Sequence record: OZ035757.1
Origin: Felixounavirus LF82P9
Strand: one strand, 5' to 3'
Length of the DNA: 64,000 nucleotides
Part shown: in pieces, positions 4,625-63,585 of the stretch
How positions within the stretch are numbered: the stretch's first letter is position 1
Layout: every line of letters begins with the position of its first letter
The notes under the pieces: generated by a model
Told to the model about the DNA's origin: nothing
Seen by the model: only the letters and a program-made list of their open reading frames with translations
The model's database searches: none
Program-made: the position numbers and the translations under genes

Positions 4625-4740
4625 AATGACCTCAAAGTTATATTAAATTTTGTATTACATTGAGTATAAAAATAAGCTATAACACCTGACTTGTCAACAG
4701 ATTTTATAGCTTATTTGGCAGATTTTTTATAAGGCTACTG

Positions 4741-5100: not shown

Positions 5101-5133
5101 AAGACCTTTTAAAAAGGAGCCTCCGAAGAGGCT
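5101..5133 (-). terminator. rho-independent terminator (minus strand)
   Basis: On minus strand: stem agcctc/gaggct with 4-nt loop, then TTTTT; directly downstream of the gene ending at 5145. Confidence 0.55.
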
Positions 5134-5144
5134 ACCTAGTCAAC

Positions 5145-12180: not shown

Positions 12181-12210
12181 ACATTACTGCAAAAAATTAT
12201 AAAAAGCAAG

Positions 12211-12240
12211 TTGACAATGCACTTGACAAGGTGTTAATCT
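12211..12240 (+). promoter_or_regulatory. sigma70-like early promoter (tandem TTGACA boxes)
   Basis: gTTGACAatgcacTTGACAAGGTG then TGtTAATCT; same 29-nt module at 56156; in divergent intergenic region. Confidence 0.4.
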
Positions 12241-12407
12241 TTGCGAAGTGGGTTTTTACTTAAAAGGTTACTTAACAGTTTAACTATACAGATACTTTAA
12301 AACTCTTAAAAGATTATTTAATAGCTTTTAAAAAGCTTTAAAGTATAACGTATAGAATACGTTAAGATAAAAGATTAAAACTTAATAGTTACTTAAAAGA
12401 GGCTTAC

Positions 12408-14457: not shown

Positions 14458-14658
14458 ATGAAGATGAGAGTAAAAGACAATTTTAAAGTTATTGACCACC
14501 GTTTAGTGGAACTCTCATCTCTTTCCAATGAGGTAATGATTGAACGTCTTAAGAGAGTTGAATCACGAAGGAAAGAGATTGCAGATGAAATTCATGAACT
14601 GGACAAGATTGAAAAGGGATTGAAGGAAGAACTACAACGAAGAGGTGCTAATGTCTAA
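14458..14658 (+). CDS. hypothetical coiled-coil protein
   Basis: ORF track; charged heptad-like sequence. Confidence 0.4.
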   Translation: MKMRVKDNFKVIDHRLVELSSLSNEVMIERLKRVESRRKEIADEIHELDKIEKGLKEELQRRGANV

Positions 14659-16636
14659 AGGTCGTAAATTGAAAGAGGCTGGTCAGTTTGTTGGTCATTG
14701 CGCATGTCCACGTTGTGGTTCATCAGATGCTGGTTCAATCTATCATCATGACGATGGTTCTTATTCAATGACTTGCTTTAGTTGTAACAAAGGTTTCCCA
14801 GAGTGGGATTTTGATAAAGGACAAATCGTGAGCACTTATTCTACTGGTTCAGACAATAAAAACCGTACTTTCCGTGGAATGGATTTAGACGATGTGAAAG
14901 AAAACCTTGAAGCGATGGACTTGAAAGACAGGAAGATTCCTGCAAAAGTTCTTGAGCGTTTGGGTATCAAGGTTGACATTGACAGCGATGGTGAAATTGA
15001 CGCGCATTTCTACCCAACTTACAAACGCAATGAAGATGGCAAGCTAGAGCATGTTGGATACCGTGTTCGTCACCGTTACCCAGAAGACCATCCAAAAGAG
15101 CACCTACGAGGTAAGTTAAAAGACTTTTCTGGTGGTGTTGGAGACATTAAAGGTGAACTGGCAATGTTCGGTTCATGGATTGCTCCAGAAGGTGGTAACC
15201 GTCTATTCATCTGGGAAGGTGAGATGGAATGTGCGACAGCAATCTATATGACTTCTCTTGCGATTAAGGACAAATCTCGTCGTAAGAATTACTGTCACGT
15301 ATCTGTTCCATCAGGTGCAAACATCAAGTCTATCAAGGATAACTATCAGTACATTACATCATTTGATGAGATTTACTTGTGCTTTGATAACGATGAAGCA
15401 GGTGCTAAAGCCACTAAAGAGGCTGCTGGTATCCTACCTATTGAGAAGGTTCGTTTATTCCAGTATCCAGAAGGTGTAAAAGACCTTAACGAATGGTGGA
15501 CAAAGTTCTATAAAGAAAAAGATACAGTTCTGGAAGGATTTAAGCAGCGTATCTACAATGCACCCCGTTACTGCCCTGCTGGTATCAAGAACTTCGCAGA
15601 TGGTTTTGAGGCAATGAAGAATCGTGGTCAGATTCCATTGATTCCTTTCCCAGAATCTTTCGGAGATTTGAACAGGCTGACTTATGGTGGTTACGGTTTA
15701 GGTGAGATTACAACTATTGCAGCACCATCTTCAGTAGGTAAGTCAGCTTACACTCGTGAGATGATTTACTCAGCTTGGAAAGAAACTGATTATAATATCG
15801 GTGTAATTCCTGTAGAAGATACCTATGAAGAGTTGATGGAGATGCTCTGTGCAATCCACCTGAGCAAGCAGATTTCTGAGATTCCTTATGACGAACGTGA
15901 TTGGGATGAATTGAAGAAGGCACACGCAGAACTGTCTAAAGGTCGTCGTATCCACATCGTTGACCATCAAGGGGCAATTGACCAAGATAACTTGCTGGAG
16001 TTTGTTGACTATCTTGTTAACAGCTTAGACTGTAAGATTATTATTCTTGACCCTATTACGTTGGCTCTGTCACGTTCAGATACGGATGAAGAGGAAGTTT
16101 TATCTGAGCTATTGCGTCGTTGCAAACGCTACCAGTATGCACAGGTGAACGTCTGTCACGTTCGTAAGAGTGCAGGTGGTCAGAAGGCTAACTCCGAAGG
16201 TGGAGATATCTCTGAAGAGGATATTAAAGGTTCTGGTGCGTATTTCCAGATTTCTATGAACAACATTCTGTTAATGCGTAACAAGGTTGACCCAGACCCT
16301 GTTAAGAAAAACTTGACAAAAATCAAGTTAACTAAATGCCGTCGTCACGGTAAGTCAACAGGTATTGCTGGTCATACTTGGTACAATCCAGATACAGGAC
16401 GTCTCATTAAAGCCTCTGGTTGTGGAGTTGACATTGATGGTGCAGCAGAAAATATTCGCCAACAGTTTGGTATTGGTGAAGCTGAAGACCATTACGATGA
16501 CTCTTTGCCACATTATGAGGATGAAGTGTTTGACCGTGAGACTGGTGAAGTCTATACTGAAGAGCAGCGTCAAAGCTCAACGATTCCACCTGTATTAAGT
16601 GAGGATGCAGATGACTGCCCGTTCGAAACTGAGTGA
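14645..16636 (+). CDS. DNA primase-helicase
   Basis: N-terminal Cys4 zinc-binding (CPRCG ... CFSCN) plus central Walker A (APSSVGKS), DnaB/gp4-like. Confidence 0.8.
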   Translation: MLMSKGRKLKEAGQFVGHCACPRCGSSDAGSIYHHDDGSYSMTCFSCNKGFPEWDFDKGQIVSTYSTGSDNKNRTFRGMDLDDVKENLEAMDLKDRKIPAKVLERLGIKVDIDSDGEIDAHFYPTYKRNEDGKLEHVGYRVRHRYPEDHPKEHLRGKLKDFSGGVGDIKGELAMFGSWIAPEGGNRLFIWEGEMECATAIYMTSLAIKDKSRRKNYCHVSVPSGANIKSIKDNYQYITSFDEIYLCFDNDEAGAKATKEAAGILPIEKVRLFQYPEGVKDLNEWWTKFYKEKDTVLEGFKQRIYNAPRYCPAGIKNFADGFEAMKNRGQIPLIPFPESFGDLNRLTYGGYGLGEITTIAAPSSVGKSAYTREMIYSAWKETDYNIGVIPVEDTYEELMEMLCAIHLSKQISEIPYDERDWDELKKAHAELSKGRRIHIVDHQGAIDQDNLLEFVDYLVNSLDCKIIILDPITLALSRSDTDEEEVLSELLRRCKRYQYAQVNVCHVRKSAGGQKANSEGGDISEEDIKGSGAYFQISMNNILLMRNKVDPDPVKKNLTKIKLTKCRRHGKSTGIAGHTWYNPDTGRLIKASGCGVDIDGAAENIRQQFGIGEAEDHYDDSLPHYEDEVFDRETGEVYTEEQRQSSTIPPVLSEDADDCPFETE

Positions 16637-46490: not shown

Positions 46491-46543
46491 GGGGCTAAAT
46501 AGCCCCAGATACCTCAACAGCCCCTGTTTAAAGGGGCTTTTTT
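46491..46543 (+). terminator. tandem-hairpin rho-independent terminator
   Basis: ggggct-aaat-agcccc, then agcccct/aggggct followed by TTTTTT. Confidence 0.6.
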
Positions 46544-46545
46544 AC

Positions 46546-48162
46546 GTCTATTGAATCCTTATACAATCCCTTTCCAGAATCTTATCAGACCTTAAAAGCA
46601 ATAACTCTATAGTCTACTCTATAACCTCTTATCAAATCAACTTAAATAAAAGCCAATAACCCCCAGAAAGGGGATGGCCCATTTAAACGCTCTATAAAGC
46701 TCTATAACAGCCTTATCAACCTAACTTAAGGGATTGCATTAACCAACCTTAAAAAGCTCTTTACAGGGCTTTATAGAGACTTAAAAGAATCTTATAAGGG
46801 TGTAAGCTTTATTATCTCATTAGTATTCTTGTGAATATCTAAACAACCCCTTGATAGTCACTAAAAAGTATGTTATAGGGGCTTTAAAGTTACTTTGAAG
46901 TAGCTTAAAAGTTACGTAAAAGAGGCTATAAAGTTACGTAAATGCTAGCCCCCTTAACATTTTCTTAACAATTTCTTAACAAACCCTACATAGTTATGCT
47001 TTTAAGGCACTTGTTAGCAACTTGTTAGCCCCTTGTTAAATCTCTGTTACAACCATGTAAAAGCCTTGTAAGAACCTTTGACATAGCCTTAAAAGCTCCT
47101 GTAAAGCCCTATAAAGAGGTATCTGTACAGTTGGGGGATAGATACTAGGAAGAGGCTTAAAAGAGCTTATAAAGAGCTATAGAGAGCTTTTAAGAGGTAT
47201 GTTTAAGGAATCACTAAGAAAGCAAAGGGAACGATAAGAAAAGAGTAGTGACCATGTTAATAGCTTGTTAAAAAGATTAAACACTTGTTAGAAACTTATT
47301 AATTATCTTAACAAAATAACTCTTCAAAATTAACTTGTTAGCTCTTGTTAGTCATCTGTTAAGATTCTGTAAAGCCTATGTATCAACTGTTAAGAAACTG
47401 TTAAGCTCTTGTTAGTTCTGTTAAGAATCTGTTAAGACCTTTGAAGAGTTGTTAAGAAGATGTGAGAACTGTTAAGAGATTGTTAAGGATATTTTAAAAT
47501 TTTGCAAAGTACTTGTAAGGGAGCTGTTAAGGGCTACCAAGCAGATATACATCTTCTACAGATATTTTTCAGTTCCTTCAGAGACCCTAAAAAATAACTT
47601 GATAGTCCTATTTTATAAAAATTTTAAGATTCTGAATAATTACCTATACAGCCTTTTAAAAATACAGGTAATAACAGGCTTATAAGATACCTTGTTAGTA
47701 CCGTGTTAGACCTTGTGAGATAAGGTCTGTAAAGATATTCCTGTTAAGTTTGTTAAAACAGTCTATATAGAGGCTTAGTAATACCTAGTGAACACCTATA
47801 GAGAGTGTCATAGCTAACCTAGAGATTAAGAGGTGTATAGGAGCTTCTAAGAGGATGTAGAGAGATGGTTAAGGTGATTGTATAGGTTGTTAAGAGGGCT
47901 TGTTAGAAGAGTGTTTAGATGGCTATTTAGAAGGGCTATACAGAGGGCTATTAAGACCACTAGATAGTTACTAAGATACTATATAGTACTATATAACTAT
48001 ATAGAGAGTAAGATTAAGAAGGTTGTTAAGAAGGATAGATATTTTATTCACATATGATGGTGACCCAGAGGTTGGGACAACCGATAAAATTTTATAAAAA
48101 ATATAAATTTCGTAAATTTTACTCAATAAAAAGCCCCCAATTAAGGAGGCTCTTAAGATATT
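46546..48162. repeat. ORF-free repeat array (candidate protein-binding array, origin or packaging region)
   Basis: No ORF of 60 aa or more on either strand; many copies of (C)TGTTA(A)G in both orientations, phased at ~10-12 bp around 47385-47530; second family CTATAAAG. Confidence 0.6.
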
Positions 48163-56077: not shown

Positions 56078-56155
56078 GGCAGACCTACAGCTTTAAGTAA
56101 GATGGTACAGTAATCCATACAACAAGTCAAGAACTATTGCAAGTTAAAAAAGTTG

Positions 56156-56184
56156 TTGACAAAGTACTTGACAAGGTGTAGGCT
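56156..56184 (+). promoter_or_regulatory. sigma70-like early promoter (tandem TTGACA boxes)
   Basis: gTTGACAaagtacTTGACAAGGTG then TAGGCT; same module at 12211; divergent intergenic region with inverted repeat AGATATC-N6-GATATCT downstream. Confidence 0.45.
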
Positions 56185-56305
56185 TATAAATACTTAGAAG
56201 ATAACTTAAAAGGTTCCTCTAAAAAGGCTATTTAAACAGATATCTTTCTGGATATCTATCTTTTATCTTAAAAGCCTTTTAAGAGGTCTTATAAGAGGCA
56301 TACCA

Positions 56306-56677
56306 ATGAAAAACAGAACAAACAAAGGCCAGTTTAAAAAAGGCCAGTCTGGAAACCCATCTGGAAGACCAAAAGGCTCTCGTAACAAAAGTTCACTCGT
56401 AAAAGCTCAACTGACCATTGATAATTCTGCTGAGTTCGCTGCAAAGCTGTTTGAGGCGATTGTTACAAGGGACGCGGCTAAGCTTGCAGAGTTCGGGTTA
56501 AACACAGATGACGTAACCATCAAGAGTATGATTGAGGTCGGTAAAACTATCTTTACTCACTCAGCAGGTGAGATGAAAGCACTTGCAGCAGACACTAAGA
56601 AGACTCCTGAGAATGGTGGTCAACAACAGACAGATAACAAACCAACGTTCTCTGCTGTAGCGACTCTTAAAAAATAA
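56306..56677 (+). CDS. basic protein with AT-hook-like N-terminus
   Basis: KGQSGNPSGRPKGSRNK motif near N-terminus. Confidence 0.45.
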   Translation: MKNRTNKGQFKKGQSGNPSGRPKGSRNKSSLVKAQLTIDNSAEFAAKLFEAIVTRDAAKLAEFGLNTDDVTIKSMIEVGKTIFTHSAGEMKALAADTKKTPENGGQQQTDNKPTFSAVATLKK

Positions 56678-56758: not shown

Positions 56759-58174
56759 ATGAGCGAATTATTTAAACATGCGCACCTTCATGCAGGTCGA
56801 ACTGAAAATGGTGCTGTAAACCATACTTCATCAATGTCTGCTCTTGTGGACTTTTACAAAGCTGCTGGTTCTAGCCGTAGCAATGTAGAAATCTTACCAG
56901 ACTTGTTCTACAAAGCTTTGCATGAGGATGTTGATGTTGCAGTTCGTATTTTACTGCATATGCGAGATGTACGAGAAGGTATGGGTGAGCGTAAAGCTTT
57001 CCGAACTGTTTTACTTCAAGCGATTGAAGATAAAGTTCTAGAGTCTACACAGGTTCTTCGCATTATGGATAAGATTGCAGAGCTTGGTCGCTTTGATGAT
57101 TTCAAAATCTTCGTGGGTACTCGTTTCGAGACAGATGCCTTCAAGCATTTAGAAGCAGCATTACTAGACCCTGCAACAGCAGGTTTGGCAGCTAAGTGGT
57201 TACCACGAGTCAAACCACGTCATAAGCAGTTTGTAAAACGTTTCTGCAAGTTTGCCAACTTGAGTGAGAAAGAGTACCGCACACTGTTGTCTGCACTATC
57301 TGATACAGTTGAGCAAAAAATCTCTGCTAATGAGTTTGGTAAGATTGACTACAGTAAGATTCCTTCACTTGCTGCTGCACGTTACCAAAAACTGTTTAAC
57401 CGTAAAGATGGAGAGCGTTACAAAGCTTACATCGAGTCCTTATCAAAAGGTGAGACTAAGATTAACGCTGGTGCTGTTTACCCATACGATGTGATTAAAT
57501 CTGTCAAGTATGGTAATGCAGATGTTGCTAATGAGCAGTGGAAAGCACTACCAAACTGGATGGCAGAAGGTGAAAACATCTTGTGTATGTCTGATGTATC
57601 AAGTTCAATGTCTTGGGTGAATTTTGGCTCCATTACTGCTCTGGATATTGGTGTATCACTTGCCTTGTATGTAGCAGAACGCAATACAGGTTGCTTTAAG
57701 AATGAGTTAATGGTTTATTCAACAAACCCTCACTTCATCGAACTGAGTGGTGATTTACGAAACCGTCATCGTCAGGTGATGCGACACGTTGAATATGGCT
57801 CAACTAACTTACAAGCAGCTTTTGACCGCATTCTTGAAACAGGTAAAAGAAACAACTTGACTCAGAAAGATATGCCAAGTAAGCTTATCATCTTCTCCGA
57901 TATGGAGTTCAATCAGGTTGATGGAGCTAACGGTCGTACAAACTTTGAAGCAATTCAGAGTAAGTACAAAAAAGCTGGATATGAGATGCCACAACTGGTA
58001 TTCTGGTACTTAGCAAACCGTAATGGTACTTGCGAAGTATCTGTTAAGGATAACGGTGTAGCAATGGTATCAGGGTTCTCTCCAGCCACTTTAAAAGCTC
58101 TGCTTGGTGGTGAGAAGTTTGACCCAATCAGTGTAATGCTCAAAGCAGTAATGATTGACCGTTATATCTGGTAA
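56759..58174 (+). CDS. vWA-domain protein with large N-terminal helical domain (Ro60/TROVE-like architecture)
   Basis: C-terminal region has MIDAS-like D-x-S-x-S (CMSDVSSSM), downstream T and D (LIIFSDMEF); ~280-aa N-terminal domain; directly upstream of tRNA array. Confidence 0.5.
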   Translation: MSELFKHAHLHAGRTENGAVNHTSSMSALVDFYKAAGSSRSNVEILPDLFYKALHEDVDVAVRILLHMRDVREGMGERKAFRTVLLQAIEDKVLESTQVLRIMDKIAELGRFDDFKIFVGTRFETDAFKHLEAALLDPATAGLAAKWLPRVKPRHKQFVKRFCKFANLSEKEYRTLLSALSDTVEQKISANEFGKIDYSKIPSLAAARYQKLFNRKDGERYKAYIESLSKGETKINAGAVYPYDVIKSVKYGNADVANEQWKALPNWMAEGENILCMSDVSSSMSWVNFGSITALDIGVSLALYVAERNTGCFKNELMVYSTNPHFIELSGDLRNRHRQVMRHVEYGSTNLQAAFDRILETGKRNNLTQKDMPSKLIIFSDMEFNQVDGANGRTNFEAIQSKYKKAGYEMPQLVFWYLANRNGTCEVSVKDNGVAMVSGFSPATLKALLGGEKFDPISVMLKAVMIDRYIW

Positions 58175-58339: not shown

Positions 58340-58416
58340 CTCTGTTTAGCTCAGCTTGGTAGAGCGTTCCGTTTGGGGCGGTAAGGCCGGAGGTTCAAGT
58401 CCTCCAACAGAGACCA
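58340..58416 (+). tRNA. tRNA-Pro(TGG)
   Basis: Cloverleaf; acceptor ctctgtt/aacagag; anticodon loop ttTGGgg; T-loop TTCAAGT; CCA encoded. Confidence 0.75.
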
Positions 58417-58423
58417 AATTAAT

Positions 58424-58501
58424 GTTCCAGTAGACAAAATGGTAAAGTCACCACTCTTTCAAAGTGGATATCTGAGGGTTCAAATCCCTTCTGGAACGCC
58501 A
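58424..58501 (+). tRNA. tRNA-Glu(TTC)
   Basis: Acceptor gttccag/ctggaac; anticodon loop ctTTCaa; T-loop TTCAAAT; CCA encoded. Confidence 0.8.
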
Positions 58502-58508
58502 GTTTTGA

Positions 58509-58581
58509 CAGAAGACCAATTACAGCAAACTTAATCTTATTCATCTGAAGGTAAATCGGACAAAGAAGAGATTTGGTCTGG
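58509..58581 (+). other. box-bounded spacer element E1 (candidate small structured RNA)
   Basis: 5' box CAGAAGACCaaTTACAGCAAA, 3' box tGGTCTGGt; AGACC/GGTCT can pair; family recurs at 58676, 59133, 59220. Confidence 0.4.
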
Positions 58582-58592
58582 TCATTAAGAAT

Positions 58593-58669
58593 TGCGGGTA
58601 TAGAGAAAGGGCGTCTCACATGTCTCATTAGCATGGTATCGGCAGGTTCGACTCCTGCACCCGCCTCCA
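58593..58669 (+). tRNA. tRNA-Met-like(CAT), atypical
   Basis: Anticodon loop ctCATta; T-loop TTCGACT; CCA encoded; 1:72 mismatch (U-C) and extra nt before D-stem. Confidence 0.5.
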
Positions 58670-58675
58670 AATTTA

Positions 58676-58741
58676 CAGAAGACCGTTTACAGCAAAATTG
58701 AATGAAATTTTTAGCGGAAAAAATTGAAAGATACGGTCTGG
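58676..58741 (+). other. box-bounded spacer element E2
   Basis: 5' box CAGAAGACCgtTTACAGCAAA, 3' box cGGTCTGGt. Confidence 0.4.
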
Positions 58742-58754
58742 TAATACTAAACAT

Positions 58755-58831
58755 GGTTAGGAAGCACATAAGGTATGTGCGGTCGCCTGTTAAGCGAATG
58801 GCACAGGGTTCGAATCCCTGACTAACCGCCA
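58755..58831 (+). tRNA. tRNA-Asn(GTT)
   Basis: Anticodon loop ctGTTaa; T-loop TTCGAAT; CCA encoded. Confidence 0.8.
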
Positions 58832-58900
58832 AATTTAGGAGAGAAGCGATTGCTCACCGATTTGTAAGGTGCAAGTCCTTAGCCTGAATAGAAATTAAAT

Positions 58901-58988
58901 GTGTCGTTATCCCGTAGATGGTAGCGGTGGGGACTGTAAATCCCTTGTCATTGAGACTCGGTAGGTTCGACTCCTACACGGCACACCA
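58901..58988 (+). tRNA. tRNA-Tyr(GTA)
   Basis: Anticodon loop ctGTAaa; long variable arm; T-loop TTCGACT; CCA encoded. Confidence 0.8.
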
Positions 58989-58993
58989 ATAAA

Positions 58994-59071
58994 GGTTATG
59001 TAGTTTAATTTGGTTAAAATACTCCCCTGTCACGGGAGATGATGAGGGTTCAAATCCCTTCGTAACCGCCA
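58994..59071 (+). tRNA. tRNA-Asp(GTC)
   Basis: Anticodon loop ctGTCac; T-loop TTCAAAT; CCA encoded. Confidence 0.8.
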
Positions 59072-59132
59072 ATTTTGAGAGGGCTATTTAGCCCCTCCCT
59101 TAAAGGGTTCTTACGAGTATCCTTTAAAGGAG

Positions 59133-59206
59133 CAGAAGACCAAATACAGCAAGAACGTATGAAATTTCAAGCCAATTTAATTTTGAAAATTTAAAACTTG
59201 GTCTGG
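59133..59206 (+). other. box-bounded spacer element E3
   Basis: 5' box CAGAAGACCaaaTACAGCAAg, 3' box tGGTCTGGc. Confidence 0.4.
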
Positions 59207-59219
59207 CTCAACAAATTTA

Positions 59220-59351
59220 CAGAAGACCGTTTACAGCAAAACTTAAACAATCTATTTCTCCGGTAAAGAAAAGGCGAAGGTTCGATTCCTTCACTCGGCA
59301 GAGGTCGAGTTGGTGTAATGGTAGCACTTAAGATGATAAACAACGGTCTGG
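59220..59351 (+). other. box-bounded spacer element E4 (contains tRNA-fragment-like segments)
   Basis: 5' box CAGAAGACCgtTTACAGCAAA, 3' box cGGTCTGGt; interior holds T-arm plus 3'-acceptor-like segment without a matching 5' acceptor. Confidence 0.4.
59276..59300 (+). pseudogene. tRNA 3'-half-like remnant (T-arm only)
   Basis: gaagg-TTCGATT-ccttc followed by actcggc; no complementary 5' acceptor strand found within 200 nt upstream. Confidence 0.35.
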
Positions 59352-59500
59352 TAATTATCTTTGTAGATAAGTTATTAAGCTTACCTGTGAGTATGCGACC
59401 ACAAAGGGTGAAAGGGTAAATTCTAGATTTAAACCCAAAAAGGCACATCGCTACAGACCTTAAGCAAGTCTGGGTAGCTTATCTACAAAGATAATTTAAT

Positions 59501-59576
59501 GGAAGTGTAGCAGAATGGTGATGCGGCAGACTTTTAATCTGACAGGCGATGGGTTCGAATCCCTCCACTTCTACCA
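59501..59576 (+). tRNA. tRNA-Lys(TTT)
   Basis: Anticodon loop ctTTTaa; T-loop TTCGAAT; CCA encoded. Confidence 0.8.
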
Positions 59577-59581
59577 AAAAT

Positions 59582-59658
59582 GGTTCAGTCGCAGATAAGG
59601 TAATGCAAGGGTTTCATAAGCCCTATGAATGTGGGTTCGATTCCCACCTGAACCTCCA
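59582..59658 (+). tRNA. tRNA-Met(CAT) (or Ile-lysidine type)
   Basis: Anticodon loop ttCATaa; T-loop TTCGATT; CCA encoded. Confidence 0.75.
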
Positions 59659-59659
59659 A

Positions 59660-59735
59660 GCTGGTATAGTTAAGAAGGTTATAACACTCCCCTGATAAGG
59701 GAACATCGGTGGTTCGATTCCACCTACCAGTACCA
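59660..59735 (+). tRNA. tRNA-Ile(GAT)
   Basis: Anticodon loop ctGATaa; T-loop TTCGATT; CCA encoded. Confidence 0.8.
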
Positions 59736-59750
59736 ATTTCAATAAAGTTG

Positions 59751-59779
59751 TTGACATTGAGATGTGACTACTTTATAGT
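59751..59779 (+). promoter_or_regulatory. sigma70-like promoter inside tRNA array
   Basis: TTGACA, 17-nt spacer, TATAGT. Confidence 0.55.
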
Positions 59780-60010
59780 AACCTTAGTTTTCGTTGCGTA
59801 GCGTCTATTTTGCAAATTTAAAATAAATGCAAACGACAATGTTTTTCTGGCAGTAGCTTGATAGGCTAAACACCAGTGAGGTCTTCCAATCCCTCATCAA
59901 AGAATTTGGCGTACTAGCCCACGGTATGATTAATAAGGTGGGCAACATTCTAAAGGGTATCCCTTATGGGGCTTGGCTTAAATGCAATAAGTACCCTTTA
60001 AAATGTTAAT

Positions 60011-60087
60011 GCACCCTTAGTTCAATTGGATAGAGCAACGGTCTTCTAAATCGTTAGTTACAGGTTCGAATCCTGTAGGGTGTACCA
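60011..60087 (+). tRNA. tRNA-Arg(TCT)
   Basis: Anticodon loop ctTCTaa; T-loop TTCGAAT; CCA encoded. Confidence 0.8.
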
Positions 60088-60229
60088 AATAGTTAGCAGA
60101 TTGCTTAGACGACCTTATCGGGTCTCCGTGTAAGGAGGTGGTCTGTATCTCATGTTTTCCAGAACATGTAAATAATCTGAGAAGGGGCTTGACAGTGTTG
60201 AGATAATACGGTAAGCTTCGAATTGTAGT

Positions 60230-60312
60230 GTGGGACGATGTTAAGACTCTAAGGCATGAGCAACGGCCTCCAAAACCGTTTCAAAGGGGTTCAACTCCTC
60301 CGTCCCATGCCA
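60230..60312 (+). tRNA. tRNA-Trp-like(CCA), atypical
   Basis: Acceptor gtgggac/gtcccat and T-loop TTCAACT clear; anticodon loop ctCCAaa; ~8 extra nt between acceptor and D-stem. Confidence 0.4.
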
Positions 60313-60325
60313 AAGTCTTATTAGG

Positions 60326-60413
60326 GGTAGGTAGCGGCTAATGGCAGCCAAACAGTCTTGAAAACTGTTGCCACTGTAGAGATACGGTGAGGGTTCGACT
60401 CCTTTACTTACCG
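60326..60413 (+). tRNA. tRNA-Ser(TGA)
   Basis: Anticodon loop ctTGAaa; long variable arm; T-loop TTCGACT; CCA not encoded. Confidence 0.8.
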
Positions 60414-60671
60414 CCTAATAAGATTTTACACCGTCCATGCTTGCTCGCATTTTCGGTTTATCCCTCGTGTATTGTCGTACACACTGATAAAGCACCTAGT
60501 AGGTGTCACGGAGAAGAGATAATATCAAGCTCTCCAAAGGTTCTAGTCACCGGATTAAACAAGACTATGCAAAGACCTTTTTAGGTCTTTTTAGAGGGCT
60601 TCTAAGGTTATTACAGCTTGTTGTGGAACCTTGTTGCTTAGGTTCTTAGAAGTTCTCTAAAAAGATTTAAT

Positions 60672-60749
60672 GGGAGATTGACGGTAATTGGTAAACCTAC
60701 CATCCTTAGAAGTTGGTGTTTGAGGGTTCGAATCCCTTGTCTCCTACCA
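60672..60749 (+). tRNA. tRNA with anticodon TAG (Leu by anticodon), short variable arm
   Basis: Acceptor gggagat/gtctcct; anticodon loop ctTAGaa; T-loop TTCGAAT; CCA encoded; A73; anticodon stem has one mismatch. Confidence 0.5.
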
Positions 60750-60756
60750 AATTAAT

Positions 60757-60832
60757 GCAGGTGTAGCAAAATGGTTATGCGGCTGACTCTTAATCAGTAA
60801 GACGATGGGTTCAATTCCCTCCACCTGTACCA
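60757..60832 (+). tRNA. tRNA-Lys(CTT)
   Basis: Anticodon loop ctCTTaa; near-paralogue of tRNA-Lys(TTT); CCA encoded. Confidence 0.75.
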
Positions 60833-60838
60833 AAAAAT

Positions 60839-60914
60839 GGGGTCATAGTTTATATGGTTAAAATTCGAGTTTTGCAAACTTGGGAACTGAGTTCAATTCT
60901 CAGTGACTCCACCA
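60839..60914 (+). tRNA. tRNA-Ala(TGC)
   Basis: Anticodon loop ttTGCaa; G3-U70 wobble pair in acceptor stem; CCA encoded. Confidence 0.8.
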
Positions 60915-60920
60915 ATTAGT

Positions 60921-60995
60921 GCATCCATAGTTTAAACGGGAAAATTACAGTCTTCCAAACTGAGGTTGAGGGTTCGATTCCCTCTGGATGCTCCA
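60921..60995 (+). tRNA. tRNA-Gly(TCC)
   Basis: Anticodon loop ctTCCaa; T-loop TTCGATT; CCA encoded. Confidence 0.8.
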
Positions 60996-61002
60996 AATTA
61001 AT

Positions 61003-61078
61003 GCTCCTATCGTATAATTGGCTATTACGGTTGCCTTGTAAGCAACTTATCAGGGTTCGAATCCTTGTGGGAGCACCA
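61003..61078 (+). tRNA. tRNA-Thr(TGT)
   Basis: Anticodon loop ctTGTaa; perfect anticodon stem; CCA encoded. Confidence 0.8.
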
Positions 61079-61174
61079 ATTCAGAGGTCAAGTGAAAGAC
61101 CGCTTTGAGTCAACTGAAGACCGTAACAAATTCCACGGAGTTGAGTTAGCGGCACAACTTCAGACCTCTTTCAC

Positions 61175-61249
61175 ACTCGCTTAGTTTATATGGTAAAACA
61201 CCACCCTTACAAGATGAAGAAAAAGGTTCAAGTCCTTTAGTGAGTACCA
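61175..61249 (+). tRNA. tRNA-Val-like(TAC)
   Basis: Acceptor, D and T arms good; anticodon loop ctTACaa but anticodon stem only 3 of 5 pairs. Confidence 0.5.
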
Positions 61250-61250
61250 T

Positions 61251-61328
61251 GTTCCAGTATCCCAATTGGCAGAGGATGCAAGCTCAAACCTTGTATTAGT
61301 GACGGTTCGAATCCGTCTTGGAACACCA
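61251..61328 (+). tRNA. tRNA with anticodon CAA (Leu by anticodon), short variable arm
   Basis: Anticodon loop ctCAAac; 3-bp D-stem with long D-loop; 6-nt variable region; A73; CCA encoded. Confidence 0.55.
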
Positions 61329-61333
61329 ATTTT

Positions 61334-61409
61334 GCAGGATTAGTTCAAATGGATAGAGCAACAGTCTACGAAGCTGTTAATAGGGGTTCGAACCCCTTAT
61401 CCTGCACCA
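61334..61409 (+). tRNA. tRNA-Arg(ACG)
   Basis: Anticodon loop ctACGaa; T-loop TTCGAAC; CCA encoded. Confidence 0.8.
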
Positions 61410-61427
61410 GATAAGCAAGAGGAATTT

Positions 61428-61670
61428 ATGCAAACATTAATCGTCGTTGAACATGAAAATTCCAATAGTATTGAGTTTGTAAGGGTTCCCACTATAGATA
61501 CCCACATTTTCTTAAAAGTCGGATGGGAATGCGACCCAATAAAAGTAGAAAGATTTATTGGTCATTGCTTTGGTGGAAGACAACTTAAAAGTGTCAATTT
61601 TGAGACAATGTTACCAGAAAGCTCAGAAACAAGTAATAATGCTTACCTCCTTACGAGGGTTAGACAATGA
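61428..61670 (+). CDS. hypothetical protein inside tRNA array
   Basis: ORF track; starts 18 nt after tRNA-Arg. Confidence 0.4.
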   Translation: MQTLIVVEHENSNSIEFVRVPTIDTHIFLKVGWECDPIKVERFIGHCFGGRQLKSVNFETMLPESSETSNNAYLLTRVRQ

Positions 61671-62224
61671 GATACTTAAAATATGCTTCATGGATTTTCT
61701 TAGCTTTGCTAGAACCACTTGCAGCAATACTAGCAGTTATCTTAGCACCTTTTGTAGTTCCATTCTACAGTGAGAAGAAAGGACACTTACCTTTCGGGTT
61801 CAGATGGATGGAGACATATGACAACCCAATTGATGGTGATGAAGGTCACGTTAAAAGATGGGCTAATATCAGATGGATTGGTAAACTAGGTGTCTACATG
61901 CAAAGAGTCGGATGGCTCTGGAGAAACAAAGCTTATAACTTCTCTTACCATGTATTAGGAAGAGATGTAAAAGATGTTACTAAGTGGAAAGGTAATATCA
62001 ACGTAAGTTCTGACCCTGAAGATAATCAGACAGGTTATCTCCTAATGTGGAACAGTAATGCTTGGGGATTATTCGCTTTTATCCCATCAATTAAAATCTT
62101 TGGTAAACAATTTTACTGGAGAATTTATATTGGATGGAAACTAAAAAGTGTTGTCCCAGAAGAAAGAGCATTCTCAAGGGAAAGAGTTATGTTGGCATTC
62201 TTTATTCATCCACTGAGAAAGTAA
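61667..62224 (+). CDS. Trp-rich membrane protein inside tRNA array
   Basis: N-terminal TM (WIFLALLEPLAAILAVILAPFVV); ATGA overlap with upstream ORF. Confidence 0.45.
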   Translation: MRYLKYASWIFLALLEPLAAILAVILAPFVVPFYSEKKGHLPFGFRWMETYDNPIDGDEGHVKRWANIRWIGKLGVYMQRVGWLWRNKAYNFSYHVLGRDVKDVTKWKGNINVSSDPEDNQTGYLLMWNSNAWGLFAFIPSIKIFGKQFYWRIYIGWKLKSVVPEERAFSRERVMLAFFIHPLRK

Positions 62225-62232
62225 AGATTTAA

Positions 62233-62308
62233 AGGGGATTAGTTTACAAGGTTAAAACCTCGGTCTTTGAAATCGAAGAAGTTGGTTCAATTCCAACATC
62301 CCCCGCCA
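62233..62308 (+). tRNA. tRNA-Gln(TTG)
   Basis: Anticodon loop ctTTGaa; T-loop TTCAATT; A1-C72 mismatch; CCA encoded. Confidence 0.75.
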
Positions 62309-62310
62309 AT

Positions 62311-62389
62311 GCTCCATTACTCCAATTGGCAGAGAGGCCAGACTTAAAATCTGTGTTATGTATCGGTTCGAATCCGATATGGAGTACCA
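62311..62389 (+). tRNA. tRNA with anticodon TAA (Leu by anticodon), short variable arm
   Basis: Anticodon loop ctTAAaa; D-arm paralogous to the CAA tRNA; A73; CCA encoded. Confidence 0.55.
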
Positions 62390-62394
62390 AATTT

Positions 62395-62470
62395 AGCGGC
62401 ATAGCATAACTGGCAATGCAGCAGTCTCTGAAGCTGTCTTATTAAGGTTCAAATCCTTATGCCGCTGCCA
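62395..62470 (+). tRNA. tRNA-Gln(CTG)
   Basis: Anticodon loop ctCTGaa; T-loop TTCAAAT; CCA encoded. Confidence 0.8.
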
Positions 62471-62501
62471 CTTCTAAGGATTCTTACGAGAGTCCTTAAA
62501 T

Positions 62502-62577
62502 GTGGCCTTATCATAAATGGTAATGACCCATGCTGTGAACATGGTCTATACGGGTTCAAATCCCGTAGGTCACCCCA
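62502..62577 (+). tRNA. tRNA-His(GTG)
   Basis: Anticodon loop ctGTGaa; perfect anticodon stem; C73; CCA encoded. Confidence 0.8.
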
Positions 62578-62582
62578 ATTTA

Positions 62583-62659
62583 TAGTCCAAGTAGCTTATA
62601 TGGTTAAAGCGCGTGTCTGAAAAACATGAGAAGAGGGTTCAAATCCCACTGGACTACCA
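62583..62659 (+). tRNA. tRNA-Phe(GAA)
   Basis: Anticodon loop ctGAAaa; D-arm ta-gctt...aagc; acceptor register ambiguous by 2 nt. Confidence 0.65.
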
Positions 62660-62675
62660 ATTTCAAAGGTGCTTA

Positions 62676-63410
62676 ATGAAAGAGATGACAGAACAAGGTA
62701 AGGAGATTTTCAATCTCTTAAAAACCGGTAAAGGGTTTTCTAACCCCCTTATTACTGGTGCAGCAGTTCTCGGTGGAACCGTAGCTGCCTCTACATCACT
62801 TGTAAGCTCTATTAGCTCTGTATCAGACCCTGCAGTAAAGGATAAGCTTGTTGCTGCTGGACTTACAACAGTTCTGCTTAACAGCTTTACCACGAGTCTG
62901 ACAAGCACTACATCAACTACCAAAACACTAACAGATTACGGTCAAAAGTCCATTGATGAGTTTTCATCACGTATGCAGGTAGCAAAAGGTTACTCTAATG
63001 TTATGGGTGCAGCAGGTGAACAAGTTGGCTGTACACCATTTAGTGGTATTATGGGTGTTGCTACAGAGTATGGTCAAAAAGCTATTGATACGATTAACAG
63101 TGCACTAGATAGTGTTAATGGTGTGTTAAGTGACTTACAAGATGCTATTGACAAAGGTCTTGATACTATTTCTGATTTAGCTGAGCAAGCTGTTAGTAAG
63201 ATTAATGAAGGTATTTCAAAAATTACAGCTTATGCAGATGAAGTTGTGCAGATGATTGAAGAAGAAGCTGCTCTTATTGCAGAGTACCTTAAAACGAATA
63301 TCAATGGGTTCTTAGCAGGTATCTTACCAGACTGGTTTGATGATGCTTGTAAAACTGGTGTAATTGACACTATTGCAACACCAGAAATGAAGAACGCATT
63401 ACAGAAATAA
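62676..63410 (+). CDS. Ser/Thr-rich membrane protein inside tRNA array
   Basis: ORF 62613-63410 trimmed to Met after tRNA-Phe; hydrophobic segment then S/T-rich tract; stop 2 nt before tRNA-Ser. Confidence 0.45.
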   Translation: MKEMTEQGKEIFNLLKTGKGFSNPLITGAAVLGGTVAASTSLVSSISSVSDPAVKDKLVAAGLTTVLLNSFTTSLTSTTSTTKTLTDYGQKSIDEFSSRMQVAKGYSNVMGAAGEQVGCTPFSGIMGVATEYGQKAIDTINSALDSVNGVLSDLQDAIDKGLDTISDLAEQAVSKINEGISKITAYADEVVQMIEEEAALIAEYLKTNINGFLAGILPDWFDDACKTGVIDTIATPEMKNALQK

Positions 63411-63412
63411 AT

Positions 63413-63505
63413 GGAAGATTAACCCTAAAAGGTAAGGGAGCAGTTTGCTAAACTGCCAGTAGCTGAGAAATCGGTGTACCAGTTCAAGTCTGGTATCTTC
63501 CTCCA
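63413..63505 (+). tRNA. tRNA-Ser(GCT)
   Basis: Anticodon loop ttGCTaa; long variable arm; perfect acceptor ggaagat/atcttcc; CCA encoded. Confidence 0.85.
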
Positions 63506-63509
63506 ATTT

Positions 63510-63585
63510 GAATCCGTGACAGAAATGGCTATGTGCCTGTCTGCAAAACAGGTTTATAAGGGTTCGAGTCCCTTCGGATTCTCCA
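63510..63585 (+). tRNA. tRNA-Cys(GCA)
   Basis: Anticodon loop ctGCAaa; perfect anticodon stem; CCA encoded. Confidence 0.85.

What the first reader, a model, noticed from the sequence alone, without database searches (positions are those of the whole stretch)
46546..48162. 1.6-kb ORF-free phased repeat array between convergent gene blocks
In a genome where genes are otherwise packed with overlaps or gaps of a few nt, about 1.6 kb carries no ORF of 60 aa or more on either strand. It lies between the tandem-hairpin terminator of the plus-strand block (46491-46543) and the 3' end of the minus-strand block (48163). By eye it holds roughly two to three dozen copies of an octamer family (C)TGTTA(A)G in both orientations (for example cttgttag, ctgttaag, ttgttaaga, and reverse-complement ttcttaaca). 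In the run around 47385-47530 the copies recur every ~10-12 bp, i.e. on one face of the helix. A second family (G)CTATAAAG / CTATAGAG is concentrated at 46690-46900 and 47100-47200, and tandem ACTATATA units sit near 47970-48000. Helically phased iterated sites are the signature of an array bound cooperatively by a sequence-specific protein. Candidates: replication origin with iterons, packaging or partition-like site, or a landing pad for a phage regulator. A long structured non-coding RNA is the alternative.
Basis: seen in the sequence. Interest (0 to 1): 0.8.

Follow-up and report, generated by a model that had tools for sequence, protein, structure and literature searches.

The report
Phage genome ends inside repeat array
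The 1.6-kb gene-free repeat array is real. It is the place where the two physical ends of this Felix O1-type phage chromosome meet, and it contains the ~590-bp terminal repeat, so it is most likely a DNA-packaging and end-processing region rather than a replication origin.

Summary
Window 46546-48162 has no ORF and consists of about 60 degenerate 10-12-bp units with core yCTGTTAAGa / CTTWWAAG. TGTTA[AG] occurs 25 times on the + strand against about 2 expected, and lag-11 autocorrelation is 0.405 against 0.27 (z = 11).

The window comes from a Felixounavirus, and 255 phage records carry the same region. Records opened at experimentally inferred termini (Pr103Blw, HP1 and at least 7 others, plus at least 11 Kolesnikvirus records) place the short direct terminal repeat (DTR) inside the array, at window 46948-47538. 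The array is therefore the collapsed concatemer junction, laid out as right-end non-coding arm | DTR | left-end non-coding arm.

Conserved features:
- The DTR edges fall on conserved boxes. The longest invariant run across three genera, AGGGCTACC|AAGCAGATATACA, straddles the right edge.
- Unit polarity flips about 40 bp inside the left edge in all ten phages compared.
- Indels between phages are whole units (11, 12 or 22 nt).

Negative results: no Rfam family, no excess of DnaA boxes or promoters, and no unusual predicted curvature.

Best reading: a cis-acting packaging and terminus-processing platform, comparable in layout to the CCTAAAG arrays at the T7 ends. A DUF5681 protein (56306-56677) is a candidate small terminase. 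The DTR is already known for this genus. The array architecture appears undescribed in the held library. Interest is moderate.

The parts
46491..46543 (+). Tandem hairpins ending the plus-strand gene block. In the virion this is the last transcription stop before the right chromosome end.
   Evidence: Sequence. Hairpin plus T-run at 46519-46538. Annotated as a rho-independent terminator in ASO1A.
46546..46947 (.). Right-end unique non-coding arm, with 10-11-bp phased CTTWWAAG / TTGATAAG-type units. All 11 PWM hits here are called on the minus strand, but the units are near-palindromic, so the polarity call is weak in this arm.
   Evidence: Aligns to the 457 bp that precede the right DTR copy of Pr103Blw.
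46659..46675 (-). Terminator-like hairpin on the minus strand (ATCCCCTTTCTGGGGGT plus a T-rich tail). It would stop leftward read-through across a concatemer junction.
46932..46962 (.). Left DTR-edge box GTTACGTAAATGCTA|GCCCCCTTAACATT. The virion left end maps to 46948.
   Evidence: Record base 1 of Pr103Blw, HP1, CRP22, NBEco005 and NBSal004 aligns to 46948. TAGCCCCCTT is kept in 3 genera. The homologous TTA|GCCACTTTTACATTTCGTTAACAA is where Kolesnikvirus records begin.
46948..47538 (.). Direct terminal repeat, 591 bp, present once here because the assembly is collapsed. It has the highest unit density: 34 units, 5.8 per 100 bp.
   Evidence: No second copy exists elsewhere in the window.
46953..46982 (-). 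Three CTTAACAATTT units (reverse orientation of TGTTAAG) at the left edge of the DTR.
   Evidence: (D16).
46986..46998 (.). Invariant CTACATAGTTATG at the point where unit polarity flips from minus to plus.
   Evidence: Left of 46990 the counts are 0 plus / 14 minus; right of it 39 plus / 7 minus (Fisher p = 7e-9).
47009..47078 (+). Five to six 11-bp units of CTTGTTAGC / CTTGTAAG type.
   Evidence: (D3).
47082..47200 (.). Sub-array of CTTAAAAG / CTGTAAAG / CTATAAAG / CTATAGAG units with 10-bp period.
   Evidence: (D4, D9).
47332..47490 (+). Densest run: 13 units of (C/T)TGTTA(A)G at 9-11-bp or 20-bp spacing.
   Evidence: (D2, D5). This part is still recognisable in Erwinia phage phiEa21-4.
47488..47509 (.). 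AT-rich box GATATTTTAAAATTTTGCAAAG, invariant at 21 of its 22 positions (47498 varies), 30 bp inside the right DTR edge.
   Evidence: two invariant runs, 47488-47497 and 47499-47509. Largely kept in phiEa21-4.
47530..47551 (.). Right DTR-edge box AGGGCTACC|AAGCAGATATACA. The virion right end maps to 47538. This is the longest invariant run across Felixounavirus, Mooglevirus and Suspvirus.
   Evidence: Kolesnikvirus records end at the same AAGCAGATATACA box.
47539..48162 (.). Left-end unique non-coding arm: 11-bp units, then a 12-bp-period sub-array (47800-47990), ACTATATAG tandem units (47977-48005) and AT-rich boxes.
48082..48133 (.). The only 40-bp stretch with at least 90% A+T in the 64-kb window. 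It resembles the ATTTTATAAAAATTTT box at 47610-47625.
   Evidence: (D15).
48134..48148 (-). Terminator-like hairpin ending the minus-strand gene block.
   Evidence: Annotated as a terminator in ASO1A.
56306..56677 (+). Candidate trans-acting partner lying outside the array: a 123-aa DUF5681 protein with a basic GNPSGRPKG arm. It is a possible small terminase.
   Evidence: Pfam PF18932, E = 2.3e-14. In two unrelated metagenomic phages a DUF5681 gene overlaps the start of the large terminase gene. The structure model is poor and gave no significant fold match.

Best explanation
The ORF-free array is the concatemer junction of a Felix O1-type (Ounavirinae) phage genome.

In the virion the DNA is linear and starts at window 46948. 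It ends at 47538 after one genome length, so the 591 bp at 46948-47538 are present at both ends as a short direct terminal repeat (DTR). In this assembly the two copies are collapsed into one. The layout is therefore: right-end non-coding arm (46546-46947), DTR, left-end non-coding arm (47539-48162).

I propose that the ~60 phased units are cis-acting sites that load a phage protein cooperatively along one face of underwound DNA. The most likely protein is the terminase recognition subunit, for which the DUF5681 protein at 56306-56677 is a candidate. In this model the complex positions the terminase nuclease on the two conserved edge boxes:
- GTTACGTAAATGCTA|GCCCCC at the left edge
- AGGGCTACC|AAGCAGATATACA at the right edge

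The DTR between the two cuts is then duplicated by strand-displacement synthesis, as in the T7 model, so that every packaged chromosome gets a copy at each end.

Shown here: the array, its phasing and polarity, its conservation, and the position of the termini and DTR (by homology).
Inferred: that the units are protein-binding sites, which protein binds them, and the cutting and duplication steps.
For: Identity of the region:
- The window is a Felixounavirus. 255 records match the region, and 185 of them cover at least 80% of the query.
- Pr103Blw (MW481326) is deposited with an annotated 'short direct terminal repeat' at 1-581 and 87841-88421. The DTR was determined with PhageTerm (PMC8303462). 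Its two ends align to window 46948 and 47538.
- Mooglevirus HP1 has annotated repeats at 1-570 and 88766-89335, which fall in the same alignment columns.
- Seven further records from other submissions open or close exactly on the same bases: ECP2307, SPJ41, CRP22, NBEco005, NBSal004, MET-P1-301 and NJ12. Draft contigs also break there (SPT-1).
- In Kolesnikvirus at least 8 records end, and 3 begin, at the homologous boxes.
- Ro111lw has a reported 613-bp DTR (PMC6454146).

Cis-acting character:
- The edge boxes are the most conserved part of the region; the 22-nt invariant run straddles the right edge.
- Unit density peaks inside the DTR.
- The minus-to-plus polarity pattern is the same in all 10 phages from 4 genera.
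- Indels are whole units of 11, 12, 22, 24-25 or 32-33 nt, so phase is preserved.
- TGTTAAG-type units are essentially confined to this locus within the 64 kb.

Precedents:
- T7 carries 12 (C/A)CTAAAG units at 13-bp spacing directly after its 160-bp terminal repeat.
- Twort-like phages have 12-bp inverted repeats at the borders of their terminal repeats (PMC7596081).

Candidate protein: DUF5681 genes sit in the small-terminase position in unrelated phages.
Against: - The termini are placed by homology, not from reads of this phage.
- Nothing here shows protein binding.
- The inverted similarity between the two edges (TGCTAGCCCCCTTAACA and TGTTAAGGGCTACCA) is no better than 14% of random pairs of 40-mers taken within the array. 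Symmetric recognition of the two edges is therefore unproven.
- The DUF5681-terminase link rests on gene order in only two metagenomic phages. No depositor names this protein a terminase. The AlphaFold model is weak (pLDDT 68) and has no significant fold match. Those unrelated phages have no comparable array beside the gene.
- The function of the analogous T7 arrays is, to my knowledge, itself unsettled.
- CTTWWAAG-type units also occur in the leaders downstream of two strong promoters, at 12250-12400 and 56190-56300. Part of the motif family may therefore serve another protein or purpose.
Confidence: 0.6

Rival explanations
1. The array is a replication origin. The iterated units are iterons for a phage initiator, and the AT-rich stretch at 48082-48133 is the unwinding element. 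The genome ends merely happen to lie in the same gene-free zone.
For: - Many phased direct repeats.
- The only 40-bp stretch with at least 90% A+T in the window lies in the left-end arm.
- The cumulative GC-skew maximum lies here.
- Replication genes are present in the window: DNA polymerase at 9451-12180 and primase/helicase at 14645-16636.
Against: - The GC-skew turn coincides with the switch of transcription direction, which explains it without an origin.
- DnaA boxes are not enriched (91 found, 93 expected).
- No initiator-like gene is adjacent; all flanking genes are of unknown function with no Rep-type domain.
- About 60 units over 1.6 kb is far more than known iteron origins carry (my own knowledge).
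- The strongest conservation sits at the DTR edges, not at an AT-rich/iteron junction.
Confidence: 0.12
2. The units have no sequence-specific function. The genome ends need a non-coding buffer, and replication slippage or unequal recombination in that buffer has generated a satellite-like array. Only the two edge boxes matter.
For: - Indels between phages are whole units.
- DTR length varies from about 563 to 694 bp within the genus and is about 440 bp in Kolesnikvirus.
- Predicted intrinsic curvature is unremarkable (mean 11.8 degrees against 10.8 window-wide).
- A related family's DTR (Pakpunavirus Adele) has no array and even carries a gene.
Against: - Individual units and the polarity switch are kept in register across genera that are only about 76-78% identical here.
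- The architecture persists in Kolesnikvirus even though the right-arm unit has changed to CTTCTAAG.
- Period and phase are maintained over 1.6 kb.
- Neutral satellites normally homogenise or decay rather than keep about 60 diverged units in fixed positions (my own knowledge).
Confidence: 0.15
3. The units bind a phage or host DNA-coating or regulatory protein unrelated to terminase. Possible roles are protecting the injected ends from exonucleases, silencing or insulating the junction, or controlling ejection, comparable to the repeat-rich injection-stop region of T5.
For: - Related CTTWWAAG units recur with 11-bp phasing in the leaders after the two strongest promoter-like sites in the window, at 12250-12400 and 56190-56300. 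The motif family is therefore not exclusive to the ends.
- The ends are the first and last DNA to pass the portal (general knowledge).
- An HTH protein (3735-4064, HTH_3, E = 5e-10) is encoded in the window.
Against: - The TGTTAAG sub-family is confined to the junction and is densest inside the DTR.
- No Chi sites and no excess of IHF-consensus sites.
- No experimental hint of two-step injection in this group was found in the papers I read.
Confidence: 0.1
4. The region is transcribed into a long structured non-coding RNA, or it is a decayed gene.
For: The + strand of 46546-47538 folds somewhat better than shuffles (z = -2.4 from only 20 shuffles), because of the opposed unit orientations.
Against: - Terminators face the region from both sides, and promoter-like sites are at chance level (13 found, 9.6 +/- 3.3 expected).
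- No Rfam family matches, apart from one hit below threshold outside the array.
- No gene is present in curated relatives of four genera.
- Stops are dense in all six frames.
Confidence: 0.03

Closest known systems
Bacteriophage T7/T3 concatemer junction: 160-bp terminal repeat flanked by the short-repeat arrays SRL and SRR
   Same: - Non-permuted linear genome with a short DTR.
- A non-coding zone at both ends.
- Arrays of a short A/T-rich ...TAAAG-type unit at regular spacing next to, and partly within, the repeat. In T7 the units sit at 175-355 with 13-bp spacing and lag-13 autocorrelation of 0.54, and there are three more inside the terminal repeat.
- The DTR must be duplicated during packaging (PMC10438801).
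   Different: - No sequence homology and a different virus family.
- Here there are about 60 units rather than about 15, with a period of 10-12 bp rather than 13.
- The DTR itself is the densest part of the array.
- Unit polarity flips near one edge.
- No phage RNA polymerase promoters flank the junction.
- Both terminal gene blocks are transcribed towards the ends rather than inwards.
Short DTRs already reported for Felix O1-like phages (PhageTerm; GenBank repeat_region features)
   Same: This is the same element. Pr103Blw has a 581-bp DTR, Ro111lw 613 bp and HP1 570 bp, and all map onto window 46948-47538.
   Different: The reports I read give only the length of the DTR. None describes the phased unit array, its polarity switch, the conserved edge boxes or the 1.6-kb gene-free junction.
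Twort-like (Herelleviridae) long terminal repeats bordered by 12-bp inverted repeats
   Same: Conserved short boxes mark the borders of the terminal repeat (PMC7596081).
   Different: - Those repeats are about 8 kb long and carry genes.
- Their border boxes are perfect inverted repeats. Here the inverted similarity of the two edges is not above chance.
Iterated-site packaging signals: P1 pac hexamers, SPP1 pacL/pacR, lambda cosB R-sites, and the DR2 12-bp array in the herpesvirus 'a' sequence (from my own knowledge)
   Same: Several short repeats flank a terminase cut site and serve, or are thought to serve, as a cooperative protein-binding platform. Herpesvirus terminal 'a' repeats also contain tandem 12-bp units.
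   Different: - Those sites have 3-7 repeats, except the herpesvirus case.
- They belong to headful or cos systems.
- P1 regulation uses GATC methylation, whereas GATC is completely absent here.
Plasmid R1 parC centromere (ten 11-bp iterons bound by ParR) and iteron-type replication origins (from my own knowledge)
   Same: 11-bp direct repeats on one helical face that are bound cooperatively.
   Different: - No ParM/ParR or Rep-type gene lies beside the array.
- A virulent phage has no obvious need for partition.
- The array is about six times larger than parC.

Membership tests
Short direct terminal repeat (T7-type, non-permuted) genome end | The same sequence is present at both ends of the virion DNA. 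| tested here: met
   Met by homology. In Pr103Blw bases 1-581 are identical to bases 87841-88421. HP1 has annotated repeats at 1-570 and 88766-89335. Both map to window 46948-47538. This was not measured on this phage's own DNA.
Short direct terminal repeat (T7-type, non-permuted) genome end | Fixed, sequence-defined termini that are reproducible between isolates. | tested here: met
   At least 9 records in Felixounavirus and Mooglevirus, and at least 11 in Kolesnikvirus, open or close on the homologous bases. The edge boxes are invariant across 3 genera.
Short direct terminal repeat (T7-type, non-permuted) genome end | A single repeat copy at the junction of a collapsed assembly or concatemer, flanked by the unique sequence of both ends. 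| tested here: met
   The window aligns continuously to the right-end unique sequence, then the DTR, then the left-end unique sequence of Pr103Blw. No 20-mer of the DTR occurs elsewhere in the window.
Short direct terminal repeat (T7-type, non-permuted) genome end | Doubled read depth over the repeat and read-start pile-ups at both edges for this very phage. | not testable with these tools
   No reads are available.
T7-like terminal short-repeat arrays (SRL/SRR) | Regularly spaced short units directly adjoining the terminal repeat. | tested here: met
   Units abut both edges and fill the DTR. The T7 layout was verified.
T7-like terminal short-repeat arrays (SRL/SRR) | Sequence homology or common descent with the T7 arrays. 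| tested here: not met
   BLAST hits of the array are confined to Ounavirinae. The core and the period both differ. This is an analogue, not a member.
Iteron-type replication origin | Iterated direct repeats. | tested here: met
Iteron-type replication origin | An adjacent initiator gene and/or host DnaA boxes. | tested here: not met
   DnaA boxes are at chance level. Flanking genes are of unknown function with no Rep-type domains.
Iteron-type replication origin | An AT-rich unwinding element next to the iterons. | tested here: inconclusive
   The stretch 48082-48133 is at least 90% A+T and unique in the window. However, it adjoins a terminator T-run and lies 500 bp from the densest units.
Iteron-type replication origin | Replication initiates here. 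| not testable with these tools
   This needs marker-frequency data or 2-D gels.
ParR/parC-type partition centromere | Partner partition genes (ParM/ParA and ParR/ParB) adjacent to the repeats. | tested here: not met
   No such domains were found in the ten flanking proteins or in the Pfam scans. The 'StbAB binding site' note in record KhF2 refers to an 11-bp repeat elsewhere, inside a gene, not to this array.
Known RNA family | A match to a curated covariance model. | tested here: not met
   No Rfam match lies within the array at E <= 1, and there are no tRNA genes there.
Small terminase (for the DUF5681 protein at 56306-56677) | The gene lies immediately upstream of the large terminase gene. 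| tested here: inconclusive
   This holds for DUF5681 genes in two unrelated metagenomic phages. In this phage group the gene is separated from terL by the tRNA cluster.
Small terminase (for the DUF5681 protein at 56306-56677) | A small-terminase fold, or sequence similarity to a solved small terminase. | tested here: inconclusive
   No PDB sequence hit. The model has pLDDT 68 and pTM 0.37. All Foldseek matches have E > 2, and the small terminases among them are only insignificant helical-hairpin hits.

The most novel reading that the evidence does not exclude
The whole 1.6-kb junction is a single polar protein-loading device. About 60 helically phased sites, whose orientation flips about 40 bp inside the left DTR edge, are coated by an oligomerising DUF5681-type small terminase. 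The direction of the filament tells the nuclease which edge box to cut on which strand, so the array controls both packaging initiation and duplication of the terminal repeat. If true, this would be a packaging-signal architecture unlike the compact pac and cos sites known so far. It would also assign a function to DUF5681 and give a tractable model for how short terminal repeats are made in myoviruses.
Probability: 0.2. Interest if true: 0.6.

Novelty: new member of a known kind. Interest (0 to 1): 0.38.

Why it matters
How terminases recognise concatemer junctions and duplicate short terminal repeats is understood mechanistically only for T7-like podoviruses, and incompletely even there.

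Felix O1-type phages are widely used for Salmonella and E. coli typing, biocontrol and therapy. Many of their genome records are opened arbitrarily: most omit the DTR, and some automated annotations call spurious small ORFs inside this region.

The practical gains are:
- The gene-free array can be recognised as the genome ends, with precise conserved edge boxes. This gives an immediate rule for orienting and annotating these genomes.
- It defines where engineered insertions should be avoided.
- It provides a large, naturally variable set of units (hundreds of genomes, with whole-unit indels) for testing what a packaging platform needs.

It also suggests a concrete function to test for the DUF5681 family.

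Tried and rejected
1. Intrinsic DNA curvature. A wedge-model calculation, with parameters recalled from Bolshoy/Trifonov, gave a mean of 11.8 degrees in the array against 10.8 window-wide. Static bending does not explain the phasing.
2. Known RNA or tRNA. No Rfam hit and no tRNA lie in the region. The RNA fold z-score is only -2.4.
3. Origin markers. DnaA boxes are at chance level, and Chi, GATC and IHF consensus sites are absent or at chance.
4. Promoters inside the array. 13 were found against 9.6 +/- 3.3 expected.
5. Symmetric edge recognition. The inverted similarity of the two DTR edges scores 10, and 14% of random 40-mer pairs from within the array reach that score. I dropped it as evidence.
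6. DUF5681 as small terminase by structure. There is no PDB sequence hit, the AlphaFold2 model is low-confidence and Foldseek found nothing significant. Public names give no function (PMC8954984). Only gene order in two unrelated phages supports the idea, and there is no similar array beside those genes.
7. Generality beyond Ounavirinae. The 1165-bp DTR of Pakpunavirus Adele has no periodic array and contains a gene.
8. The 'StbAB binding site' annotation in phage KhF2 turned out to mark an 11-bp repeat inside a gene 6 kb away, not this array.
9. Erwinia phage Fifi318 is said to be opened according to PhageTerm, but it begins upstream of terL and has no terminal duplication in the record. I treated this as an annotation convention. 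Eleven other Kolesnikvirus records open or close at the array.
10. Literature. The Felix O1 genome paper and the genome reports I read do not describe the array.
Full report
**What is in the sequence.**
Window 46546-48162 has no ORF of 60 aa or more on either strand. Each of the six frames holds 40-51 stop codons against about 33 expected. The region lies between a hairpin plus T-run that ends the plus-strand block (46519-46538) and a terminator-like hairpin that ends the minus-strand block (48148-48134).

TGTTA[AG] occurs 25 times on the + strand and 4 times on the - strand. The mean of 500 dinucleotide-preserving shuffles is 2.0 (maximum 8), and the rest of the window holds 1.5 per 1617 bp. 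CTTGTTAG and CTGTTAAG each occur 8 times against no more than 0.2 expected.

The phasing is real and wider than reported. Base autocorrelation peaks at lag 11 (0.405 against 0.27, z = 11), with harmonics at 21-22 and 32. No other 1.6-kb chunk of the window approaches this. The local period is 10 bp at 46600-46720, 11 bp at 46720-47600 and 12 bp at 47800-47990.

An iteratively refined 11-nt weight matrix (consensus yCTGTTAAGa, which also accommodates CTTWWAAG variants) places about 60 non-overlapping units.

**What the window is.**
The region matches 255 phage records, of which 185 cover at least 80% of the query. All but one are phages of enterobacteria; the classified records fetched are Ounavirinae, and the best hit is 94.5% identical (Escherichia phage ULIM3). 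Curated records leave the region without genes and annotate terminators on both sides (ASO1A). Others mark small 'repeat_region' features (fjerdesal). Automated pipelines call spurious ORFs of 29-45 aa (Sl26). The Felix O1 genome paper does not discuss the region (PMC3185647).

**The key result: the array contains the chromosome ends.**
When the hits are ranked to their weak end, several records match only part of the array, and the match starts at base 1 of the record. One of them is Escherichia phage vB_EcoM-Pr103Blw (MW481326). It is deposited with 'short direct terminal repeat' features at 1-581 and 87841-88421, which its authors determined with PhageTerm (PMC8303462).

The two copies are identical. 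The left end aligns to window 46948 onward, and the right end aligns up to window 47538.

Using window 46948-47538 as a query, further records open or close exactly on its first or last base and carry two copies. These are ECP2307 (592 bp), SPJ41 (613), CRP22 (579), NBEco005 (651), NBSal004 (694), MET-P1-301, NJ12, and the Mooglevirus HP1 (570 bp, annotated repeat_region). In a ten-genome alignment, the independently annotated Pr103Blw and HP1 repeats begin and end in the same columns.

In Kolesnikvirus (Erwinia phages) at least eight records end, and three begin, at the homologous positions. This gives a DTR of about 440 bp. A 613-bp DTR is also published for the Felix O1-like phage Ro111lw (PMC6454146).

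The window holds only one copy of this sequence. It aligns continuously to right-end unique sequence, then the DTR, then left-end unique sequence. That is what a collapsed short-read assembly of a DTR phage looks like (PMC10438801).

The '1.6-kb ORF-free array between convergent gene blocks' is therefore the concatemer junction:
- right-end non-coding arm, 46546-46947
- DTR, 46948-47538
- left-end non-coding arm, 47539-48162

**Anatomy and conservation.**
Unit density is highest inside the DTR: 34 units, or 5.8 per 100 bp, against 2.4-2.7 per 100 bp in the arms.

Unit polarity is organised. Left of about 46990, all 14 calls are on the minus strand. Right of it, 39 of 46 are on the plus strand (Fisher p = 7e-9). 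The flip sits at an invariant CTACATAGTTATG (46986-46998), about 40 bp inside the left DTR edge. The same minus-then-plus pattern appears in all ten genomes from four genera. One caveat applies: units in the right-end arm are near-palindromic (CTTAAAAG), so their strand call is weak. The three CTTAACA units at 46953-46982 are unambiguous.

Both DTR edges are conserved boxes.
- The left edge is ...GTTACGTAAATGCTA|GCCCCCTTAACATT.
- The right edge is AGGGCTACC|AAGCAGATATACA. This is the longest run invariant across Felixounavirus, Mooglevirus and Suspvirus, and it is still recognisable in Kolesnikvirus.

An AT-rich box, GATATTTTAAAATTTTGCAAAG, lies 30 bp inside the right edge and is invariant at 21 of its 22 positions.

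Length differences between phages come in whole units of 11, 12, 22, 24-25 or 32-33 nt. This explains the variable DTR length while keeping the phase.

In Kolesnikvirus the right-arm unit has become CTTCTAAG, but the layout is retained.

**What it is not.**
- Not a known RNA. No Rfam family or tRNA lies in the array. Promoter-like sites are at chance level. The RNA folding z-score is a modest -2.4.
- No origin markers. DnaA boxes are at chance level. Chi and GATC are absent, and the IHF consensus occurs once. The flanking genes are small proteins of unknown function with no replication-initiator or partition domains.
- Not intrinsically curved. A rough wedge-model calculation predicts no unusual curvature, so the phasing is better explained by protein binding than by static bending.
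- Not a general feature of related DTR myoviruses. The 1165-bp DTR of Pakpunavirus Adele has no such array, so the array is a feature of Ounavirinae.

**Mechanism proposed.**
Shown here: the array, its phase, its polarity, its conservation, and the position of the termini and DTR (by homology).

Inferred: the units are cooperative binding sites that assemble the packaging machinery at the junction and position the nuclease on the two edge boxes. The DTR between the cuts is then duplicated by strand displacement, as proposed for T7.

An 11-bp period matches the helical repeat of underwound DNA rather than relaxed B-DNA (my own knowledge). This is consistent with DNA wrapped on an oligomer.

A candidate partner is the 123-aa DUF5681 protein at 56306-56677 (Pfam E = 2.3e-14). 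It has an invariant basic K-G-x3-N-x2-GRP-x-G arm. In two unrelated metagenomic phages the DUF5681 gene overlaps the start of the large terminase gene, which is the classical small-terminase position. In STGO-35-1 it is the last gene before terL in a genome opened at terL (PMC8954984).

This link is weak. There is no PDB hit. The structure model is poor, and Foldseek found nothing significant. No depositor annotates the protein as a terminase. Those unrelated phages have no comparable arrays beside the gene.

The apparent inverted symmetry of the two edges is not above chance within this repeat-rich sequence, so I do not rely on it.

**Comparison with known systems.**
The closest analogue is the T7 end. 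I checked in the T7 record that 12 (C/A)CTAAAG units at 13-bp spacing follow the 160-bp terminal repeat, with further copies inside it and before the right copy.

Twort-like phages mark the borders of their terminal repeats with 12-bp inverted repeats (PMC7596081).

The P1, SPP1 and lambda packaging sites, and the herpesvirus 'a' sequence, also use iterated short sites (my own knowledge).

The present case shares the logic of these systems but not their sequence or descent. It differs in scale (about 60 units over 1.6 kb), in the DTR being the densest part, in the polarity flip, and in both terminal gene blocks being transcribed towards the ends.

**Novelty and score.**
The existence of a ~0.6-kb DTR in this genus is already public. 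The organised array around it, the edge boxes and the polarity switch were not described in any paper I could find in the held library. The finding is a new, larger member of a known kind of element (a terminal-repeat junction with short-repeat arrays), not a new category. It is useful for annotation and as a model for DTR packaging, and it yields a testable function for DUF5681. Interest is 0.38.

**Confidence.**
- About 0.9 that this is the genome-end/DTR junction.
- About 0.45 that the units are a terminase-loading platform.
- About 0.25 that DUF5681 is the binder.
- The overall figure of 0.6 is for the combined statement as worded.

Noticed in passing
window 1-64000: The tetranucleotide GATC does not occur at all in the 64-kb window. 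186 +/- 14 occurrences are expected from dinucleotide-preserving shuffles. This is complete avoidance of the Dam/MboI/Sau3AI-type site.
   Followed up: partly
window 56306-56677: This 123-aa protein belongs to DUF5681 (E = 2.3e-14). In two unrelated metagenomic phages the DUF5681 gene overlaps the start of the large terminase gene, which suggests the family may be a small terminase. Structure prediction and fold search were uninformative.
   Followed up: partly
window 4625-5144: A second ORF-free stretch. It holds two copies of a ~121-bp unit (4721-4841 and 4997-5117, 71% identical). Each copy contains C/A-rich ACCTnACC-type repeats at 15-bp spacing, followed by a hairpin-like 'gtagctgagactaactac' segment. 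Its function is unknown.
   Followed up: partly
window 12205-12400 and 56140-56300: Both divergent intergenic regions carry near-identical twin -35-like elements (TTGACAatgcacTTGACAAGGTG and TTGACAaagtacTTGACAAGGTG). Each is followed by a leader filled with CTTAAAAG / CTTATAAG / CTTTTAAG units at about 11-bp spacing, related to the units of the terminal array.
   Followed up: partly
window 48082-48133: The only 40-bp stretch with at least 90% A+T in the whole window. It lies in the left-end non-coding arm and resembles the conserved ATTTTATAAAAATTTT box at 47610-47625.
   Followed up: partly
window 58340-63585: A cluster of 26 tRNA genes on the + strand, interrupted by a few small ORFs. This is typical of Felix O1-like phages.
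   Followed up: no
L022/L023 (Erwinia phage Fifi318, PQ051114): The record is described in its paper as opened according to PhageTerm. It actually begins 1.3 kb upstream of terL and has no terminal duplication, and its repeat array sits internally at 75767-77173. Eleven other Kolesnikvirus records open or close at the array instead.
   Followed up: yes
L014 (phage KhF2, KT184314) locus 10358-10368: The depositor annotated an 11-bp 'direct repeat sequence2 possible binding site of StbAB' inside a gene about 6 kb from the array. It is unrelated to the terminal array.
   Followed up: partly
window 56759-58174: A 471-aa protein immediately after the DUF5681 gene carries DUF2828 and DUF7788 domains. 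Its function is unknown.
   Followed up: no
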